Position numbers and translations under genes: made by a program. A stretch of DNA of 46,173 bases, taken from a virus (taxonomy: Duplodnaviria > Heunggongvirae > Uroviricota > Caudoviricetes). Positions 1,985 through 19,714 of the stretch are shown here, one piece after another. The notes below the pieces were generated by a model. That model was not told where the DNA came from. It searched no databases and saw only the letters and a list, made by a program, of their open reading frames with translations. The DNA lies in the IMG/VR virus record IMGVR_UViG_2778261505_000003, positions 1 through 46,173 of that record. One strand, written 5' to 3'. Numbering within the stretch: position 1 is the stretch's first letter; every line of letters begins with the position of its first letter.

Positions 1985-2794
1985 TTATTCCTCTGAATTA
2001 TCGATTACACTGTATTCCCCGGTTAATACAGAGGAATCTGCAGGATCGATTGTCAGTGGTTCCTTTTCATCCATTGATACTGCACGCTGGATCTCAATTG
2101 ATACGGGCAGATATTTGAACAGGCGACGAATAGCTGTTTTCTTTGCCATTTCTTCCCAGTGAGTTACCCACGGCCCGTTATTACCAGCTTTACTCTGGCT
2201 GCGCACCAGCTCAATCTGTCTGCGCGTCATAACTTCAAACTGAGTACCTCCGTCTTTCAGTCTTGCGACAGCATAGACGTGGGTAACCGGGGCATCTTCG
2301 TTTTCTCCTGGGCGGTGTATTAACTTTTCATCAAGGCCAAATTCGAAATTAAATTCGTCACCTTCACGGACAACACGGGCTGACAGGCTGGCGATTTGAC
2401 CTGAACGGCGAGCCAGATCAATCATGCCGCGATAGCCAATGATTAGCTGAACGTTTTTTTTACCGCTCTTTTCGTTTTTATTACCAAAAGGCAGTAAATA
2501 TGCATGACCGAGGGCGCTACCTGGCTCAAGTCCGAGCTGTGAACACTGTACGATTGCACTGACAAAACTCATAGTGTCACAGTTTCCTAACGCCGGAACT
2601 TTACGAATTTCTGTGGTGGCGATACGGATCATACGTTCAGCCGTCATATGGCGTGGAAGAGCTGCTGCCAGTTGCTCTTTCATTGATGGCTGGTTAATAA
2701 AACTAATCACGTCGTTATTTTTAATTGCTGCTGGTGCACGGTTTCCCTGAGTTTTTTGCAGATCGGCTTTTGCGATTGGTGGTTGCTTAGTCAT
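1985..2794 (-). CDS. recT: RecT single-strand annealing recombinase, 269 aa from MTKQPPIAK
   Basis: Translation matches recalled RecT; stop of recE overlaps its start as in Rac. Confidence 0.9.
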
Positions 2795-5387
2795 TTGCAT
2801 ATTCCTTAGCCCAGCGGGGCAGTGATAACGTCTTAATAGCTGGCCATTCATCGGTATTGAGGCAGTCAGCCAGGGTTCGCAGATTGCGGTGATATTCCAG
2901 CTGACCTGCCAGTTTTGCTTCTTCGCCCATCATGAAAATTTCAACCGGATAACGTCCGCATTCAATAGTTGTGCTGGCAACCAGAAAAACGAAAGTTGGC
3001 TGCACTCCAAACTGTGCTTCATAACCGTCACTGTAGAATGCATCCTGAACGTGATAGCGGTAGTCGTAATAAGCTGTTTTGAATCGTTGAATATCCGCCG
3101 TAGTTTTCACGTCCATGATCCAGTGAAATTCAGGGATAATTTTGTCCGGACGGCACCGACACAAAATTCCTGTTTCAGGATCTTCCCAGTAAATTGATGA
3201 TTCAGCGTGTCCGGCGCTTTCAACAAGCCATTGCCCCAGCGGCAAAGCCATAACGCTTTGATACATGAGTTCAATTTTCCGGCCTTCTTCCGCAGTGATA
3301 ACCGTTTTTCCTGTGCTTGCGCATTCCATCAGAAACGCTTTCTCCTCTTCTTTTCCGGCGTTTGTACGGCGGTTAAATTCAGGTGCTACGATAAAGCGGT
3401 TACTGAATTCTTCCGGTTCAAGTACCCGGCAGTGGAAAGCGGTTCCTAAATCGAGCGTTTTTGTCTTTGTGGTGTCCACGGGGGCATTTTTACGCCACAA
3501 ATACAATGCCGGAGTATCAGCAATGTCATCGAGCTGAGACTTACTGACACCGGGACCCGCGTGGTAATTCTCATTCGAAATTCCGTAATAAATACCTGGC
3601 TCTATGTCTTCTACGATTACGGGATCTGCGACTTTGCCAGTTTCATCACTGCAATCGCGATGCGGATCGCTGCCAGCATTCTCATTGTGCGGATGTTCAG
3701 CGCCTTCCATTTCCTCCGGATCATTTTCCTTAGCTTCAACCTGACTCTCTTCATCGAATGTTTCCTGGTATGTTGCGTCGCCCATCACCGCACCACAGTC
3801 AGGGCAGTTATCCCCGCCAGTCTGGCCGCAGGCATTGCAGGCTATTTCCGGTTCCTGTTGCACTACTGGCTCAGGTTGATTCATATCCGGGCTGGTTTTT
3901 TCCGTTTCTGGCTGGTTCTGGTACACAGAATCGCGAGTCTGGATCCCCTTTACCCATTTCGGATCGTTCGGGTCGCTAATTCCGTCAACAAATTCACCAC
4001 GTGATGCAGCAAGCAATTTATTGGCATCGACAGGATTTTTTGATGGAATGTTTTTCCGGGCTTCATGGAGTTCTGCCCGCAGTTCCTGATATTTCGCATC
4101 AACAGAATTTACCTGTGACTGAGCATCCAGCGGCTGCGTGTCCTGATGATGTTCAGTTGCGTCCGGTTCCATTGTTTCAGTCTCTCCCTGTTCAACTGCC
4201 GTTGTTCCAGATGGTTGCGGTTTTTCTTCATCATCCTGTTTTCCTTCTTCTGTTACTCGCTGCGGCATCGGGGCAGAGGAGCGACCGCAGGCAATATCCA
4301 CGATTTCCGGATCAGGGTTGGCATGATCGGTTTCAGTCAGTACTTTGTTCAGATATTCAGTGACGTGCGCGGGGATGATCTCGATCCCAATTGGTGCTTC
4401 TTTTACGGACGCAACCACGATGGCGCGGGAATAATCCAGCCCGCCAGGCATGGTGATGAATTTGTCGCGGAAAACAGAAAAGGGCGGTTTATTTTCAGCG
4501 ATAATTTCCTCAATGCGTTTAGCGTGTGCCGGATGAATGTTATAGATGTCCAGATCCATTGAACGGGCCAGTACGCCAGTGGCTACGTCGCGCGCCAGTG
4601 ACGTCAGATCGTGTACGAAACCTTTGCCGCGATCGGTGAGGTTTCCGCCGCCAGCATTAGCACCGGAAGCCGTGCGAGTGATGTGTGAAACACGATTACC
4701 CTTCATCCACTCTTTTGTCAGCAGTCCTCGATCGGTGTAGTCAGCGTTCAGGTATGCTTCGAAAAAAGCAGTTATCAGTCCCAGGTTTGAATTACCAGGA
4801 TTAGGGAAAACTTTGTCAGTGTCACGAACCAGTTTGTGGAGATCGCGAATTTCCAGCGGGTCGAGCAGGCTGGTTTTGTGGGAAACAGCCAGGGCAGTAA
4901 CAGCCGGTAGTTCTTCAGCCCGAGCAATGTGTAATGCCTGGAGTCCGTCGCGTGAAACGTGCGTTACCGGTTTTTCGCTGCCGTGTTGAGCAAGCCAACG
5001 AATGGGCAGTTCCTGGCCAGAAATTGGGAGTAGCATATTCTCCTCAATCTCAGTCATGTCTTCGCCGTTGACGTTGGTATTGCCTTGATAGTGAGCGTTG
5101 TCTGGTGCTGCTCCCGGTTTTAGTTCCCATGTCATGGAGTCTTTGCTGAGTTGATAGCGTTCACTCCAGGTAAAATCGATCTCACCTTCAGCGGGCAGGT
5201 CATTAACGACAGGAAAATTCGTGGCAACAGCTTTAAAATAGCTGCTCAGTTTTTTACCTGACTTAACGATCAGGTAGTCCAGAGTGGCACAGGTCGATTC
5301 AAAATCGTCGCTTGCCCACAGGACGACGTCAGGTTCACCGGATGATTTTTTCGCTTTCCGTAACAGGAAGAGTGGTTTTGTGCTCAT
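2787..5387 (-). CDS. recE: RecE exonuclease VIII, 866 aa
   Basis: 866-aa ORF, same length as K-12 RecE; acidic N-terminal region and C-terminal nuclease domain directly upstream of recT. Confidence 0.88.
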
Positions 5388-15306: not shown

Positions 15307-15845
15307 TTTACCCAACGAATACAGGAAAAAGCGGAGAACACCTTCGTCTCGCCACGCTGGAAAGTGTCTGGATTCAGGGCAAACTGCGTATGTGGGGGCG
15401 CTGGTCGTATATTGGCGGTGGCAGGTCAGGAAATATGTTCAATCAGTTGTTGGCATCCAAAAAATTGACGAAAACAGCCATCAATGAAGCCCTGCGCAGA
15501 ATGAAAAAAGCGGGAATAGAGAAAGCTGAGCTGGAAGCGTTTTTGAGAGAGATGATCAACGGCAAGCAAAAGAGCTGGCTGGCGCATTGTACTGATGCAG
15601 AGGCGTTATGTATTGATCGAGTCATAAGTGAGGTGCTGGCAGAGCATCCAGGATTGATTAGCGTCCTTCGGCAACGGTATGAGGGGCGGGGGATGACCAA
15701 ACGCAAAATGGCTGAATTGCTAAATGATGCACACCCAGAGTGGTGTTTTAGCACATGCGAAAAGCGAATTGCTAATTGGTTGGCCGTTGCTGAGTATGCG
15801 CTATACATTCCCATGCGAGAATTATTCGCTCAAAAAACGGCTTGA
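15303..15845 (+). CDS. Late-gene antiterminator Q-like protein (GTG start)
   Basis: AGGAGG RBS then GTG overlapping the ybcO stop (GTGA); sits directly upstream of a promoter-terminator pair, tRNAs and the lysis cassette. Family assigned from position and size. Confidence 0.55.
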   Translation: MIYPTNTGKSGEHLRLATLESVWIQGKLRMWGRWSYIGGGRSGNMFNQLLASKKLTKTAINEALRRMKKAGIEKAELEAFLREMINGKQKSWLAHCTDAEALCIDRVISEVLAEHPGLISVLRQRYEGRGMTKRKMAELLNDAHPEWCFSTCEKRIANWLAVAEYALYIPMRELFAQKTA

Positions 15846-15876
15846 TTTTTTACGCATAAACTGCTTCAATTTTGCT
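15842..15876 (+). promoter_or_regulatory. Candidate late promoter pR'
   Basis: TTGATT, 17-nt spacer, TTCAAT immediately after the Q stop; weak match, positional inference. Confidence 0.3.
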
Positions 15877-15930
15877 ACGCTTCGCAAAGCTGTATCGCGT
15901 GGCGAATCAGGCGCAATTAAACTTTAATAG

Positions 15931-15960
15931 AACCCGCATCGAGCGGGTTTTGTTGTTTTT
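15931..15960 (+). terminator. Rho-independent terminator (tR'-like)
   Basis: Hairpin AACCCGC-atcga-GCGGGTT followed by TTGTTGTTTTT. Confidence 0.55.
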
Positions 15961-16197
15961 GTGGTGTGATATAAGAAACGACATTTAATAATTGCCTTCA
16001 AAATAAATTTGTTTATATATTGTCGCGTATATTTTAAATGAAGGTGAAATGTTCACATAAAATAAAAATACATAAATAAATTTACATAACTTGACGCAAA
16101 GTGTTGTTGCGATTGGAATATTAAATCGTATTATCGAAAACGGTTCTGAGGGGGAACTCTTCTTTGATCGGTGATATCGCTCCCCTGAAGAACCAAT

Positions 16198-16272
<75 letters not shown>

Positions 16273-16275
16273 TAT

Positions 16276-16350
<75 letters not shown>

Positions 16351-16714
16351 GCATTTGAAACAAGCCTTATTGTATTGCGGCACTGGCGTATTTTTTATTA
16401 CGTGGGAGCAGGTTGTTTTGGAAAAGCATTCTGTTCTCTGGCTATAATTTGAGGCCAGGTGTAGCCTCAGTGCTGATTTTTTTACGACAGCAGAATGGTG
16501 CATTATCGGTGGAGATTTTGTATTTCCTGGCAGGGTCGGTGATGCATCATTCTGGTGTTGTAAAAGCACCACAGAGGTGTTCCTCAGTGCGAGGGTGGTT
16601 TATATAGTGGTTTAGCGGGGAATCACAATATTTGTTGTAGGGACAGATATTTCGGGAGGCACCCGACACCTCGATTTTTATTACAATTAAAATGATTTAT
16701 CTTATACATTGACC

Positions 16715-16741
16715 AACCGCCATATCTGGCGGTTTTTTTTA
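16715..16741 (+). terminator. Rho-independent terminator
   Basis: Hairpin AACCGCCA-tatc-TGGCGGTT followed by a run of 8 T. Confidence 0.55.
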
Positions 16742-17127
16742 TACCTGCATCAGACAAAAAAAGACACGAGCATCCAGGAATCCTCGTGGGACAACGTCCT
16801 TTAGATAGCAATTTGCGAGAGGGTGAAAAGTAGCGCGGTCGTCGGATTAAGACCGCGGGACAAAGTCCATGAAGAATAATAAGTATTGGCCCCCTTCTGG
16901 GGACATGTCCATACTACTAAGCTTCAGAAGTGGTTTAAATCATCAAATTAACCTTAATTTTCGATAAGTCTTATTTCATTTCTTTGCGCCACATCTGGCG
17001 CGCATCAAATAACGCCACGCAAAGGGCATCTGCGGATGCCGGTGCTTTTGACGGGGTGTTTTTACGGGCCGCTGGTGGCCATTTTTTGTTTCCGTTACAC
17101 AGCGCCCGCATCTGCGAGGTGGGAGTT

Positions 17128-17343
17128 ATGAAATCCATGGATAAGTTAACAACGGGTGTCGCCTATGGCACCTCCGCAGGCAGTGCTGGCTACTGGTTTT
17201 TACAGTTGCTCGATAGAGTAACTCCGTCACAGTGGGCTGCAATCGGTGTGCTGGGTAGTCTGGTATTTGGCCTGCTGACGTACCTGACAAACCTTTATTT
17301 CAAGATTAAAGAAGATAAGCGCAAGGCTGCACGGGGAGAGTAA
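17128..17343 (+). CDS. S: Pinholin, phage 21 S-type, with dual-start motif (71-aa antiholin / 68-aa holin)
   Basis: [26 protein letters not shown]... closely matches recalled S21; two in-frame ATGs at 17128 and 17137. Confidence 0.85.
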
Positions 17344-17347
17344 TTCA

Positions 17348-17692
17348 ATGACTCAAAACTATGAAGTGATTATGAAAGGGATCCGCAATTTTGAGAATAA
17401 AGTTACGGTAACTTTAGCGTTACGGGACAAAAAACGCTTTGACGGTGAAATTTTTGACCTGGACATCTCGCTGGACCGTGTTGAAGGTGCCGCGCTGGAG
17501 TTTTATGAGGCAGCAGCCAGAAGGAGCATCAGACAGGTCTTCCTGGATGTTGCTGCCGGGTTATGTGAAGGGGATGGGCAGTCGCCGGAAAAGCGCCCCG
17601 TAATTTTAGATGCGCAGAATGTGTGGATAACCTACAAAGGAAAGCTACCAGGAAGAATTACTAATTCTCTGAAGACTCCACCGAAATGGTAA
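17348..17692 (+). CDS. Hypothetical protein between holin and endolysin, possibly YdfR/DUF1327-like
   Basis: ORF starts 5 nt after the holin stop; a ydfR gene occupies this position in the K-12 Qin lysis cassette. Family not verified. Confidence 0.45.
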   Translation: MTQNYEVIMKGIRNFENKVTVTLALRDKKRFDGEIFDLDISLDRVEGAALEFYEAAARRSIRQVFLDVAAGLCEGDGQSPEKRPVILDAQNVWITYKGKLPGRITNSLKTPPKW

Positions 17693-17930
17693 TTTTACCA
17701 GCATATTTTTCTTCCAGTAATGCCGCCAGCCACTTGAAAGAATTTTGTTGTTCCTGGGACCATTTGGAGTTGCGTGATTCAAGCAAGAGCGATGCAAGTG
17801 TTGGTTGCATTTGTTCTCTGGGAATTGATAAGGCCAGATATGAAAATGCAACAGTGAGGGCATTTACATCATCCCGAAGCTTGGAAATGCAGTCGAGCAA
17901 CTCCTGTAGAGAAATGGTGTTATTGTCCAT
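17661..17930 (-). CDS. Hypothetical 89-aa protein, convergent with and overlapping the 3' end of the preceding ORF
   Basis: AAGAGGA RBS 6 nt upstream of the ATG; protein-like composition; the opposite-strand ORF over this interval is Cys/Ser-rich junk. Confidence 0.35.
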   Translation of the reverse strand: MDNNTISLQELLDCISKLRDDVNALTVAFSYLALSIPREQMQPTLASLLLESRNSKWSQEQQNSFKWLAALLEEKYAGKITISVESSEN

Positions 17931-18035
17931 AAATAATCCTCTTGATTGTCTTTACCTTTTCCCCGCCTGATTCAACAGGCCGGGACAGATAAACATATCC
18001 AGGGTTCAGAAACCGATAAATCCTGATAAATATCC

Positions 18036-18569
18036 ATGAACGCAAAAATCAGATACGGCCTGTCGGCTGCCGTTCTGGCACTGATTGCCGTCGGTGCGCC
18101 TGCGCCTGATATTCTCGACCAGTTTCTGGATGAAAAAGAAGGTAACCACACAACGGCATACCGCGATGGTTCCGGCATCTGGACCATCTGTCGGGGTGCC
18201 ACGGTGGTGGATGGAAAACCCGTTTTTCCCGGTATGAAACTGTCGAAGGAAAAATGCGACCAGGTTAACGCCATTGAACGGGATAAGGCGCTGGTATGGG
18301 TGGAGCGCAATATTAAAGTGCCACTGACCGAACCACAGAAAGCGGGTATAGCGTCATTTTGTCCCTATAACATTGGCCCCGGTAAGTGTTTCCCGTCGAC
18401 GTTTTATAAGCGGCTGAATGCTGGTGATCGTAAAGGTGCATGCGAGGCGATTCGCTGGTGGATTAAGGACGGTGGCCGTGATTGCCGCATTCGTTCAAAT
18501 AACTGTTACGGTCAGGTTATTCGTCGTGACCAGGAAAGCGCATTAGCCTGTTGGGGAATAGATCAGTGA
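18036..18569 (+). CDS. R: SAR endolysin (lysozyme with N-terminal signal-anchor-release domain)
   Basis: N-terminal weakly hydrophobic Ala/Gly-rich segment ([16 protein letters not shown]) followed by a T4-lysozyme-like catalytic region; partner of the pinholin. Confidence 0.85.
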
Positions 18570-19033
18570 GCAGAGTCGCCGCGATTATTTATGCTCTGGT
18601 TATCTGCACTATCGTCTGCCTGTCGTGGGCGGTCAATCATTACCGTGATAACGCCATCGCCTACAAAGAACAACGTGATAAAAAAGTCAGTGAGCTGAAG
18701 CAGGCGATCGCCACCATCGCTGACATGCAGCAGCGTCAGCGTGATGTTGCTGCGCTCGATGCAAAGTACTCGAGAGAATTAGCCAATGCGAAAGCTGAAA
18801 ATGAAACTCTGCGCGCTGATGTTGCCGCTGGTCGTAAGCGCCTGCGGGTCAATGCCAGTTGCTCCGCAGCCGTGCGTGAAGCCACCGGCCCCACCAGCGT
18901 GGATAATGCAACCATCCCCCGACTGGCAGACACCGCTGAACGGGATTATTTCACCCTCAGAGACCGATTGATGACGATGCAGAAGCAACTGGAAGGGGCA
19001 CAGCTATACATTCGTGAGCAATGCCTCAGATAA
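18566..19033 (+). CDS. Rz: Rz i-spanin (GTG start)
   Basis: [34 protein letters not shown]... near-identical to recalled lambda Rz; GTG overlaps the endolysin stop (GTGA). Confidence 0.8.
18786..18971 (+). CDS. Rz1: Rz1 o-spanin lipoprotein, embedded in the +1 frame of Rz
   Basis: Lipobox LVVSAC and Pro-rich body ([30 protein letters not shown]) matching recalled lambda Rz1; true start may be the Met at 18801. Confidence 0.7.
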
Positions 19034-19330
19034 AAACCGGCCAAGGATAATCCGCTGAAGATTTGCCGGCGGCGAAAGAGAGCCAAGGGTTCAGCCTACG
19101 CCATTACTCCTGTCGATGCAATGCATTCAATGGATGCTTGATTTATTTCTGTGCGCTATATCGTCGCTGTCTCCTGCATTAACTATGACCGTAACTTGAC
19201 GGGGAACCCCTTCTGCGTGAGTTTGCGGGAATAATCAAAAACGATGCACACCGGGTTTTACTGTGCTGACAGACGCAGGGTTACCCTCATAGTCGCTTTT
19301 CCGGTGCGATGGTGGAAGAAACCGGGATGT

Positions 19331-19525
19331 TCATCCATCATCACTTTTGATTGATGTATATGCTCTCTTTTCTGACGTTAGTCTCCGACGGCAGGCTTCA
19401 ATGACCCAGGCTGAGAAATTCCCGGACCCTTTTTGCTCAAGAGCGATGTTAATTTGTTCAATCATTTGGTTAGGAAAGCGGATGTTGCGGGTTGTTGTTC
19501 TGCGGGTTCTGTTCTTCGTTGACAT
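19331..19525 (-). CDS. YlcI/DUF3950-like small protein, 64 aa
   Basis: Small basic ORF between the lysis genes and cos, as in DLP12; family from memory only. Confidence 0.45.
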   Translation of the reverse strand: MSTKNRTRRTTTRNIRFPNQMIEQINIALEQKGSGNFSAWVIEACRRRLTSEKRAYTSIKSDDG

Positions 19526-19714
19526 GAGGTTGCCCCGTATTCAGTGTCGCTGATTTGTATTGTCTGAAGTTGTTTTTACGTTAAGTGGATGCAGATCAAT
19601 TAATACGATACCTGCGTCATAATTGATTATTTGACGTGGTTTGATGGCGTAGATGCACGTTGTGACATGTAGATGATAATTATTATCATTTTGCGGGTCC
19701 TTTCCGGCGATCCG

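What the first reader, a model, noticed from the sequence alone, without database searches (positions are those of the whole stretch)
17348..17930. Two convergent, overlapping ORFs inserted between pinholin and SAR endolysin
In phage 21 the S and R genes are adjacent; here about 700 bp separate them. The insert holds a plus-strand 114-aa ORF starting 5 nt after the holin stop and a minus-strand 89-aa ORF with a strong RBS, overlapping by 32 bp tail to tail. One may be a YdfR/DUF1327-type moron as seen in the K-12 Qin lysis cassette; the antisense partner is unexpected inside a late operon and could modulate lysis timing or act as an embedded accessory gene.
Basis: partly seen in the sequence, partly recalled or inferred. 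Interest (0 to 1): 0.5.

Follow-up and report, generated by a model that had tools for sequence, protein, structure and literature searches.

The report
Backward accessory gene in lysis cassette
Between the membrane-hole gene and the wall-degrading gene of an E. coli prophage lie a known-family gene (ydfR) and, on the opposite strand, a small conserved gene of unknown function inserted at a recombination hot spot; both are already annotated in about a thousand genomes, so the arrangement is real but fairly ordinary.

Summary
The + ORF 17348-17692 (114 aa) and the - ORF 17661-17930 (89 aa) overlap tail to tail by 32 bp. They lie between an S21-type pinholin (17128-17343) and a SAR endolysin (18036-18569).

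- **Plus ORF.** It is a YdfR/DUF1327 protein (Pfam 3.4e-41).
- **Minus ORF ("X").** It looks like a real gene. It is intact in 41 of 43 haplotypes, with dN/dS about 0.3. It has a good ribosome-binding site and a confident three-helix model. Relatives at 30-40% identity occur in Citrobacter prophages and as a syntenic chromosomal gene (dinI-X-bssS) in Serratia and Chimaeribacter. It matches only phrog_2411 (unknown function).
- **Annotation.** RefSeq annotates both genes. X DNA is in 1125 of 5426 complete E. coli genomes, including E. coli B.
- **Origin of the overlap.** X lies on a ~295-bp insert that most S-ydfR-R cassettes lack. Each gene borrows its last codons from across the insertion joint, so the overlap is a by-product of the joint.
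- **Hot spot.** The same slot holds at least four other unrelated minus-strand small ORFs. All follow a shared promoter-like block and a hairpin.

Best reading: an independently expressed accessory gene ("moron"). A role in lysis timing is untested and not favoured. Function remains unknown.

The parts
17128..17343 (+). S21-type pinholin (71 aa, dual start MKSM)
   Evidence: PF04971 'Bacteriophage P21 holin S', 4.8e-35. PGAP annotates it as essD.
17348..17692 (+). ydfR (114 aa, DUF1327). Its SD, GGAGAG, lies inside the holin 3' end. The last two codons (KW) and the stop come from the insert.
   Evidence: PF07041 3.4e-41 and phrog_406 4.9e-66. dN/dS 0.31. Joint mapped.
17661..17930 (-). Gene X: 89-aa acidic (pI 4.6) soluble protein, modelled as a three-helix bundle, phrog_2411 family. 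Residues 83-89 are read from the antisense of the ydfR 3' end.
   Evidence: phrog_2411 3.7e-55. Intact in 41/43 haplotypes; synonymous fraction 0.47 against 0.26 expected. Distant homologues. AF2 pLDDT 82. Physical properties.
17661..17692 (.). 32-bp tail-to-tail overlap of ydfR and X
   Evidence: Coordinates. It is the most variable stretch (11 of 32 columns vary). The X tail has pLDDT below 50.
17685..17980 (.). About 295-bp insert relative to cassettes that lack X. GC is 42%, against 49.6% for the whole window.
   Evidence: Homology with PhiR40_1, 2H10 and Stx2a_1447 ends at 17683-17687 and resumes at 17980-17992. GC.
17960..17985 (-). GC-rich hairpin in the presumed 5' leader of X (CCCGGCCUG-UUGAAU-CAGGCGGGG)
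   Evidence: -20.5 kcal/mol for the 60-nt leader, z -2.98. The core stem is kept in all X haplotypes. Other cassettes have a hairpin at the same place.
17992..18020 (-). Candidate promoter for X: TTTATC, 17 nt, TATGTT. It matches only 7 of 12 consensus positions and lies in the reverse complement of the R leader.
   Evidence: TATGTT is invariant in all X haplotypes. The block is shared upstream of five other minus-strand ORFs. Activity was not tested.
18036..18569 (+). SAR endolysin R (177 aa)
   Evidence: PF00959 4.3e-24. The N-terminal G/A/S-rich hydrophobic stretch and the E-8-D-5-T motif are read directly from the translation.
18566..19033 (+). Rz i-spanin (GTG start overlapping the R stop), with embedded Rz1 lipoprotein at 18786-18971
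   Evidence: PF03245 1.2e-47. PGAP coordinates. Rz1 ORF.

Best explanation
The window carries an intact S21-type lysis cassette, S-ydfR-R-Rz/Rz1.

**ydfR.** It is a regular passenger of such cassettes. It is most likely co-transcribed and translationally coupled with S from the late promoter. This is inferred from the 4-nt gap and from the SD inside the S 3' end.

**Gene X.** It is a separate accessory gene (a 'moron'). It arrived on a ~295-bp AT-richer segment by mosaic recombination at a hot spot between the ydfR core (...LKTPP) and the R leader. It encodes a 10-kDa acidic cytoplasmic protein modelled as a three-helix bundle.

**Expression (inferred, not shown).** X is probably transcribed on its own, leftward, from a weak promoter-like block in the reverse complement of the R leader. 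The mRNA would start with a stabilising stem-loop and carries a good SD. Expression would then occur mainly in the lysogen and not as part of the late transcript.

**The overlap.** The 32-bp overlap is a by-product of the joint. ydfR takes KW plus its stop codon from the insert. X runs seven codons into the antisense of ydfR until it meets a stop.

**Function.** The biochemical role of X is unknown. Relatives are core chromosomal genes in Serratia and Chimaeribacter, among small stress-response genes (dinI, bssS). The most likely mode of action is therefore binding to a host protein to adjust host physiology, and not control of the holin or endolysin.
For: **Shown: annotation and prevalence.**
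- Both ORFs are annotated, and the full arrangement is present in 1046 complete E. coli genomes.
- X DNA is in 1125 of 5426 genomes. These include the Rac prophage of E. coli B and three isolated phages.

**Shown: X is coding.**
- The X frame is intact in 41/43 haplotypes. Third-position changes number 32 of 59. The synonymous fraction is 0.47 against 0.26 expected, and dN/dS is 0.31, equal to ydfR.
- The competing + strand 94-aa ORF is stop-interrupted in 27 of 43 haplotypes.
- Homologues at 30-40% identity share the motifs AFSYLAFS and ALxFES.N.
- The AF2 model has pLDDT 82.

**Shown: X is an insert at a hot spot.**
- Cassettes without X exist: PhiR40_1, Stx2a_1447 and K-12 Qin. Joints are at 17683-17687 and 17980-17992.
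- Of 80 IMG/VR loci chosen by YdfR similarity, 64 have no insert, 8 carry X, 4 carry a 2H10-type cassette and 1 carries a further cassette type.
- Other cassettes in the slot also carry minus-strand ORFs: phrog_2572, phrog_21218, phrog_1853 and a 91-aa ORF.
- Insert GC is 42%, against 49.6% for the window.

**Shown: X is independent of lysis genes and of ydfR.**
- Serratia and Chimaeribacter have the synteny pyrC-dinI-X-bssS-solA, with a terminator between dinI and X.
- A Citrobacter prophage has X without ydfR.

**Inferred: own expression signals.**
- A conserved block with TATGTT, then a hairpin, then an SD lies upstream of six different minus-strand genes.
Against: - There are no expression data of any kind.
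- The candidate promoter matches only 7 of 12 consensus positions. The standard scan did not call it.
- No convincing terminator follows X.
- The conserved upstream block could be conserved for its plus-strand role as the R leader.
- In three prophage types, X or its homologue sits next to late or lysis genes on the opposite strand. This could hint at a lysis-linked role.
- About 10% of database sequences are truncated or frameshifted, so selection is not strong everywhere.
- Structure searches gave no functional lead.
Confidence: 0.7

Rival explanations
1. Antisense safety device or lysis-timing control. Leftward transcription from the R-leader block runs through X and, lacking a terminator, on into ydfR and S. 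In the lysogen this antisense RNA, or the collision of polymerases, would damp leaky S/ydfR/R expression. It could also tune lysis timing after induction. X protein would be secondary or additional.
For: - There is no strong terminator between the X stop and the S gene.
- Tail-to-tail overlap recurs in other cassettes: 53 bp in 2H10, 4 bp in Perceval and 14 bp in Citrobacter.
- All alternative ORFs in the slot are on the minus strand behind one shared upstream block.
- Lambda has precedents for antisense control (PaQ, oop). This is background knowledge and was not tested here.
Against: - X shows a protein-coding substitution pattern and has distant protein homologues, which an RNA-only role does not need.
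- 64 of 80 sampled cassettes have no insert. The commonest no-insert type has CAGGTT in place of TATGTT.
- Q-modified late transcription should overwhelm a weak convergent promoter. This is an inference.
- There are no expression data.
Confidence: 0.12
2. X and YdfR form a functional pair, such as inhibitor and target or a toxin-antitoxin-like couple. The acidic X (pI 4.6) would neutralise the basic YdfR (pI 8.8), which in K-12 binds the RNase E catalytic domain.
For: - The two proteins are adjacent and have opposite charge.
- In each cassette type, the variable YdfR C-terminus changes together with the minus-strand gene.
- K-12 YdfR interacts with RNase E residues 1-597 and co-purifies with RNA (PMC13232886).
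Against: - X homologues occur without ydfR: in the Serratia and Chimaeribacter chromosomes, in a Citrobacter prophage and in L093.
- Most ydfR copies have no X.
- The minus-strand partners in other cassettes are unrelated to X.
- Joint variation is expected from physical linkage alone.
Confidence: 0.07
3. X is an anti-phage (superinfection-exclusion or defence) or anti-defence gene sitting in a prophage accessory hot spot.
For: - The slot behaves like a hot spot with interchangeable small genes.
- The genes are oriented for expression independent of the late operon.
- X is small, acidic and helical, a type common among phage inhibitors. This last point is background knowledge.
Against: - PADLOC gave no hit for X, YdfR or the other slot proteins.
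- X has a syntenic chromosomal orthologue among stress genes in Yersiniaceae.
- No fold match was found.
Confidence: 0.08
4. The minus ORF is not a gene. It would be a chance open frame opposite non-coding DNA, or opposite the + strand 94-aa ORF 17686-17970, whose ATG overlaps the ydfR stop.
For: - The + 94-aa ORF is open in the window and in 16 haplotypes.
- It shares wobble positions with X, so dN/dS alone cannot separate the two frames (0.25 against 0.31).
- X has no Pfam or NCBIfam family.
Against: - The + ORF carries 1-2 stops in 27 of 43 haplotypes, whereas X is intact in 41.
- X-frame homologues at 30-40% identity exist in other genera and in other genomic contexts.
- X has a strong SD, a confident helical model and a full-length phrog_2411 match.
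Confidence: 0.03

Closest known systems
E. coli K-12 Qin lysis cassette essQ-ydfR-rrrQ-rzpQ/rzoQ
   Same: It has the same S21-type holin, a DUF1327 gene directly after it and a lysozyme after that. The holin and the first ~200 nt of ydfR are 88% identical, and R is 93% identical.
   Different: Qin ydfR is 103 aa and has a different C-terminal third. Its stop overlaps the rrrQ start. There is no minus-strand gene and no ~295-bp insert.
Lambdoid 'morons' on the opposite strand of the late region (lambda bor downstream of Rz; ylcI/ynfO genes)
   Same: X is a discrete extra gene between genes that are adjacent in related phages. It has a lower GC content and the opposite orientation, and is presumably expressed from the prophage. 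The window itself has a YlcI/YnfO gene at 19331-19525 (-).
   Different: X sits inside the lysis cassette, between ydfR and R, and not after Rz. It has no signal peptide or lipobox. Its promoter and terminator are not evident. Its function is unknown, whereas Bor is a known outer-membrane lipoprotein (background knowledge).
PHROG family phrog_2411 (unknown function)
   Same: Full-length match: 3.7e-55 over residues 1-89 of a 90-position profile.
   Different: Nothing differs. The window protein is one residue shorter than most members. The family has no annotation, and this work extends it to chromosomal genes in Serratia, Chimaeribacter, Sodalis and others.
Antisense control elements in lambdoid phages (lambda PaQ within Q, oop RNA against cII; P22 sar)
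   Same: A leftward transcription unit would be embedded in, and convergent with, a rightward operon whose untimely expression is harmful. This is a resemblance only.
   Different: Those elements are short non-coding RNAs with mapped promoters. Here the unit encodes a conserved protein, and neither its promoter nor any effect on S or R has been shown.
Accessory-gene hot spots in temperate phages (for example the P2/P4 defence hot spots)
   Same: A fixed slot between conserved genes is occupied by alternative, unrelated cassettes in different genomes.
   Different: Cassettes here are single small ORFs (79-104 aa) with no PADLOC match. No defence function has been shown.

Membership tests
DUF1327 / YdfR family (plus ORF) | Match to Pfam PF07041 above the gathering score | tested here: met
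   139.8 bits against a cut-off of 25, E 3.4e-41, covering residues 1-112. PGAP names it 'YdfR family protein'.
DUF1327 / YdfR family (plus ORF) | Position directly downstream of an S21-type holin in a lambdoid lysis cassette | tested here: met
   The gene starts 4 nt after the holin stop. The order is the same in Qin, PhiR40_1, Stx phages and 2H10.
DUF1327 / YdfR family (plus ORF) | Binding to the RNase E N-terminal domain, reported for K-12 YdfR | not testable with these tools
   Reported only for K-12 YdfR, residues 1-72 (PMC13232886). The window protein is 67% identical overall.
phrog_2411 (minus ORF X) | Full-length HMM match | tested here: met
   E 3.7e-55, residues 1-89 against profile positions 1-89 of 90.
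Moron (extra transcription unit in a phage genome) | Discrete insertion between genes that are adjacent in related phages | tested here: met
   The ~295-bp segment is absent from PhiR40_1, Stx2a_1447 and 64 of 80 sampled loci.
Moron (extra transcription unit in a phage genome) | Base composition different from the neighbouring genes | tested here: met
   Insert GC is 42.2%. S is 49%, R is 52% and the window is 49.6%.
Moron (extra transcription unit in a phage genome) | Own promoter and terminator | tested here: inconclusive
   Only a 7-of-12 sigma-70-like site was found (18020-17992), and no clear terminator. The shared TATGTT block and 5' hairpin upstream of six minus-strand genes are suggestive. 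Homologues elsewhere do have terminator-like hairpins downstream.
Moron (extra transcription unit in a phage genome) | Expression from the repressed prophage | not testable with these tools
   This needs RNA-seq, Ribo-seq or proteomics of a lysogen.
S21 pinholin / SAR endolysin lysis cassette (context) | P21-type holin with dual start, plus a lysozyme with a SAR N-terminus and the E-8-D-5-T motif, plus Rz/Rz1 | tested here: met
   PF04971 4.8e-35, PF00959 4.3e-24 and PF03245 1.2e-47. MKSM start, [17 protein letters not shown] stretch, [16 protein letters not shown] motif and the embedded Rz1 ORF are read. Function was not tested.
Known anti-phage defence systems | Match to a PADLOC model | tested here: not met
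   No hit at E<=1 for X, YdfR or the proteins of the other cassettes.
Antisense regulatory RNA (PaQ/oop-like) | Mapped antisense promoter, a non-coding transcript, and an effect on the sense gene | not testable with these tools
   X has a coding signature, so it is not a purely non-coding unit. No Rfam hit in 17900-18040.

The most novel reading that the evidence does not exclude
The reverse complement of the R leader (TTTATC-17-TATGTT, window 18020-17992) plus the stem-loop after it may be a conserved leftward expression platform built into S21-type lysis cassettes. Unrelated small ORFs are swapped in behind it: X/phrog_2411, phrog_2572, phrog_21218, phrog_1853 and a 91-aa ORF. Because no terminator follows, its transcript would also run antisense across ydfR and the pinholin gene. 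One element would then both express a lysogen-phase accessory protein and guard against accidental firing of the lysis genes.
Probability: 0.15. Interest if true: 0.6.

Novelty: new member of a known kind. Interest (0 to 1): 0.35.

Why it matters
About one complete E. coli genome in five, including the laboratory B/BL21 lineage, carries this uncharacterised 10-kDa protein inside a lysis cassette. Showing that it is a real, selected gene with chromosomal orthologues in Serratia gives a concrete target for small-protein studies.

The slot between ydfR and R repeatedly holds different opposite-strand small genes behind one shared upstream block. That slot is a tidy natural system for studying how temperate phages acquire and express accessory genes without disturbing lysis timing.

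It does not change how pinholin/SAR-endolysin lysis is understood.

Tried and rejected
- **Family searches for X.** Pfam, NCBIfam and PADLOC scans of X and of 14 family members gave nothing. A PDB sequence profile search gave only a chance hit, E 0.48.
- **YdfR structure.** The AF2 model was too poor to search (pLDDT 52).
- **+ strand 94-aa ORF 17686-17970 as the real gene.** Rejected because it is stop-interrupted in most haplotypes. dN/dS could not discriminate because the two frames share wobble positions.
- **Homology between X and the other slot ORFs.** None was detected by hhalign.
- **LexA box upstream of X.** None was seen. The Serratia dinI LexA box is separated from X by a terminator.
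- **Shared upstream motif between prophage and chromosomal X genes.** None was found beyond the prophage hairpin.
- **Rfam scan of 15800-19700.** It found only the two tRNAs and sub-threshold hits.
- **Literature.** Nothing was found on X, its accession numbers, 'ybl58' or phrog_2411. A survey of Stx-phage lysis cassettes does not discuss genes between S and R.

Full report
**Observation.**
- The ORF list gives + 17348..17692 (114 aa) and - 17661..17930 (89 aa), sharing 32 bp.
- The holin is 17128-17343 (71 aa, MKSM dual start). The endolysin starts at 18036, so 692 bp separate the two.
- ydfR begins 4 nt after the holin stop, with GGAGAG inside the holin 3' end. The minus ORF has AAGAGGA 6 nt before its ATG.
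- The description is accurate.

**Identity of the flanking genes.** Pfam gives PF04971 (P21 holin S, 4.8e-35), PF00959 (phage lysozyme, 4.3e-24) and PF03245 (Rz, 1.2e-47). The lysozyme has a G/A/S-rich N-terminal stretch and the [16 protein letters not shown] (E-8-D-5-T) motif. Rz1 is embedded at 18786-18971. The window is a lambdoid E. coli prophage. The 1-kb region is 99.8% identical to several E. coli chromosomes.

**The plus ORF.**
- It is a YdfR/DUF1327 protein: PF07041 3.4e-41 and phrog_406 4.9e-66.
- K-12 Qin has essQ-ydfR-rrrQ with no gene on the other strand.
- YdfR variants of 103, 104, 114, 116, 176 and 183 aa share the first ~112 residues (fewer in Qin and Perceval) and then diverge after ...LKTPP.
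- A 2026 paper reports that K-12 YdfR binds the RNase E catalytic half and co-purifies with RNA (PMC13232886). Whether that holds for this copy is an inference.
- The AF2 model was poor (pLDDT 52).

**Is the minus ORF (X) a gene?**
- PGAP annotates it as a hypothetical protein, and it matches phrog_2411 over its full length (3.7e-55).
- 77 related sequences gave 43 distinct haplotypes. X is intact in 41 of them.
- The + strand 94-aa ORF 17686-17970 is interrupted in 27 of the 43.
- Variable sites in X fall mainly on codon position 3 (32 of 59). The synonymous fraction is 0.47 against 0.26 expected, the same as for ydfR (0.46 against 0.28).
- Pairwise dN/dS is 0.31 for both genes. The antisense frame cannot be separated by this measure.
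- A full HMM search and a profile search found relatives at 30-40% identity in Citrobacter, Serratia, Sodalis, Chania, Gibbsiella, Chimaeribacter and Acerihabitans. They share the motifs AFSYLAFS and ALxFES.N.
- AF2 gives three helices (8-34, 38-52, 59-77; pLDDT 82) and a disordered tail.
- The protein is 10.1 kDa, pI 4.6, with no membrane segment.
- I conclude that X is a real protein-coding gene (about 0.9). About 10% of database sequences are truncated or frameshifted, often at a CCC run after KWS.

**How common is X?**
- X DNA is in 1125 of 5426 complete E. coli genomes. The whole S-ydfR-X-R arrangement is in 1046.
- It is in the Rac prophage of E. coli B.
- It is in only 3 of 50,697 phage records: Chlobot, vB_EcoS-783R2 and phiSTEC1575-Stx2k. 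In the last, a different lysis module follows it.

**X is an insert, and the overlap is a joint artefact.**
- Homology with cassettes that lack X ends at 17683-17687 and resumes at 17980-17992.
- The insert supplies ydfR's last two codons and its stop (AAA TGG TAA).
- The X core (residues 1-82, homologous as far as ...ITI in the Citrobacter protein) lies inside the insert. Residues 83-89 (SVESSEN) are read from the antisense of the shared ydfR 3' end until a stop appears.
- The overlap is the most variable stretch (11 of 32 columns), and the X tail is disordered.
- Insert GC is 42%, against 49.6% for the window.

**The slot is a hot spot.**
- Of 80 IMG/VR loci chosen by YdfR similarity, the distance between two fixed anchors (window 17683 and 18010) was 52 nt in 64 loci (no insert), 326 nt in 8 (X), 511 nt in 4, and 33, 897 and 1230 nt in one each.
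- The 511-nt type (phage 2H10) has a 70-aa YdfR extension and an unannotated minus-strand 88-aa ORF, phrog_2572 (1.3e-53), overlapping ydfR by 53 bp.
- Phage Perceval has a minus-strand 79-aa ORF, phrog_21218 (1.9e-57).
- L138 has a longer YdfR fusion (phrog_1085) and a minus-strand phrog_1853 ORF.
- L195 has yet another minus-strand ORF of 91 aa.
- These proteins show no detectable homology to X and no PADLOC match.

**Shared upstream architecture.**
- On the minus strand, all these genes follow the same sequence: the reverse complement of the R start, then GGATATTTATCAGGATTTATCGGTTTCTGAACCCTGGATATGTT, then 8-12 nt, then a GC-rich hairpin, then 40-60 nt with an SD.
- The hairpin is (C)GCCAGTG-GTAGGA-CACTGGC(G) in Perceval, L195, L138 and the Citrobacter X gene. 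It is a shorter-loop form in 2H10. In L093 it is CGACTGTG-GTGGGA-CACAGTCG, with compensating changes.
- In the window, a different hairpin sits at the same place (17960-17985). The 60-nt leader folds at -20.5 kcal/mol, z -2.98. Its core stem and the TATGTT are kept in all X haplotypes.
- Cassettes diverge right after the hairpin.
- I read this as a weak promoter plus a 5' stem-loop. That reading is inference: the hexamers match only 7 of 12 positions, and the block may be conserved as the R leader.
- The commonest no-insert type has CAGGTT instead of TATGTT. The Stx2a_1447 type looks like a deletion running from inside the hairpin to the ydfR end.

**Context of the distant homologues.**
- In Serratia marcescens and Chimaeribacter, X is a syntenic chromosomal gene: rne-ABM-pyrC-dinI-X-bssS-solA. 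A terminator lies between dinI and X.
- In a Citrobacter freundii prophage, X lies just upstream of holin-lysozyme-spanin on the opposite strand. It overlaps a 63-aa ORF tail to tail.
- In another prophage, X lies opposite to late genes next to the terminase.
- X therefore does not need ydfR or lysis genes. In prophages it is nevertheless repeatedly placed backward in the late region.

**Function.** No family, fold or defence match was found. No literature was found. The committed reading is a lysogen-expressed accessory protein acting by protein binding on a host target. Lysis-timing control, an antisense guard, a YdfR partner and a defence role are kept as rivals with low weights.

**Verdict.** This is a correct observation of an already annotated, widespread arrangement. 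The 'unexpected antisense partner' is best explained as an ordinary moron at a hot spot. The hot spot, and the shared upstream block with its hairpin, are the only mildly new points.

Noticed in passing
L003 2221-2487 (-), L102 1348-1587 (-), L138 ~2617-2931 (-), L195 ~1665-1940 (+ in locus): Four further unrelated small ORFs (phrog_2572, phrog_21218, phrog_1853 and a 91-aa ORF MSEENSKEY...) occupy the same ydfR|R slot in other phages. All are opposite to the late operon. At least the first two (2H10, Perceval) are unannotated in their GenBank records.
   Followed up: partly
window 17992-18035 (-) and 17960-17985 (-); L102 1640-1670, L089 4903-4947, L093 4925-4947: A conserved block containing TATGTT/TATGAT is followed by a GC-rich hairpin upstream of six different minus-strand genes. 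The L093 hairpin has compensating base changes. This may be a promoter plus 5' stem-loop platform. It is not in Rfam.
   Followed up: partly
window 19331-19525 (-): A second opposite-strand small gene (YlcI/YnfO family, 64 aa) lies downstream of Rz. Backward genes in this late region are therefore not exceptional.
   Followed up: no
window 16198-16272 and 16276-16350 (+): tRNA-Thr(TGT) and tRNA-Gly(TCC) genes lie between the Q-region genes and the lysis cassette.
   Followed up: no
window 16419-16448 (+) and 16715-16734 (+): A good sigma-70-like site (TGGAAA-18-TATAAT, 10 of 12) is followed ~270 nt later by a strong terminator (AACCGCC...GGCGGTT plus T-run). This is the layout expected of a late promoter pR' and its tR'. 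A sub-threshold Rfam hit to STnc100 covers 16547-16744 (27 bits, gathering score 47).
   Followed up: no
window 17686-17970 (+): A 94-aa ORF lies antisense to X, and its ATG overlaps the ydfR stop (ATGGTAA). It is open in the window's own clade but stop-interrupted in 27 of 43 haplotypes. It is not a conserved gene.
   Followed up: yes
window 17661-17663; codon 106 of ydfR: The window and its two closest haplotypes have TAG where the other haplotypes have CAG (X Q90). The same base change turns YdfR G/D106 into N. One mutation therefore alters both overlapping genes.
   Followed up: partly
L015 2923-4233: One IMG/VR relative has a ~1.3-kb insertion (probably an IS element) splitting ydfR upstream of X.
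   Followed up: no
L004 2422-3459 (phiSTEC1575-Stx2k): In this Stx2k phage, S21-ydfR-X is followed by a second, different lysis module (two holin-like genes plus an M15 peptidase) and not by R. The recombination joint is at the R start codon.
   Followed up: no
L088 5001-5282; L098 5001-5270: Serratia and Chimaeribacter chromosomes carry an X homologue between dinI and bssS. In E. coli K-12, dinI and bssS are neighbours without it (from memory, not checked here).
   Followed up: partly
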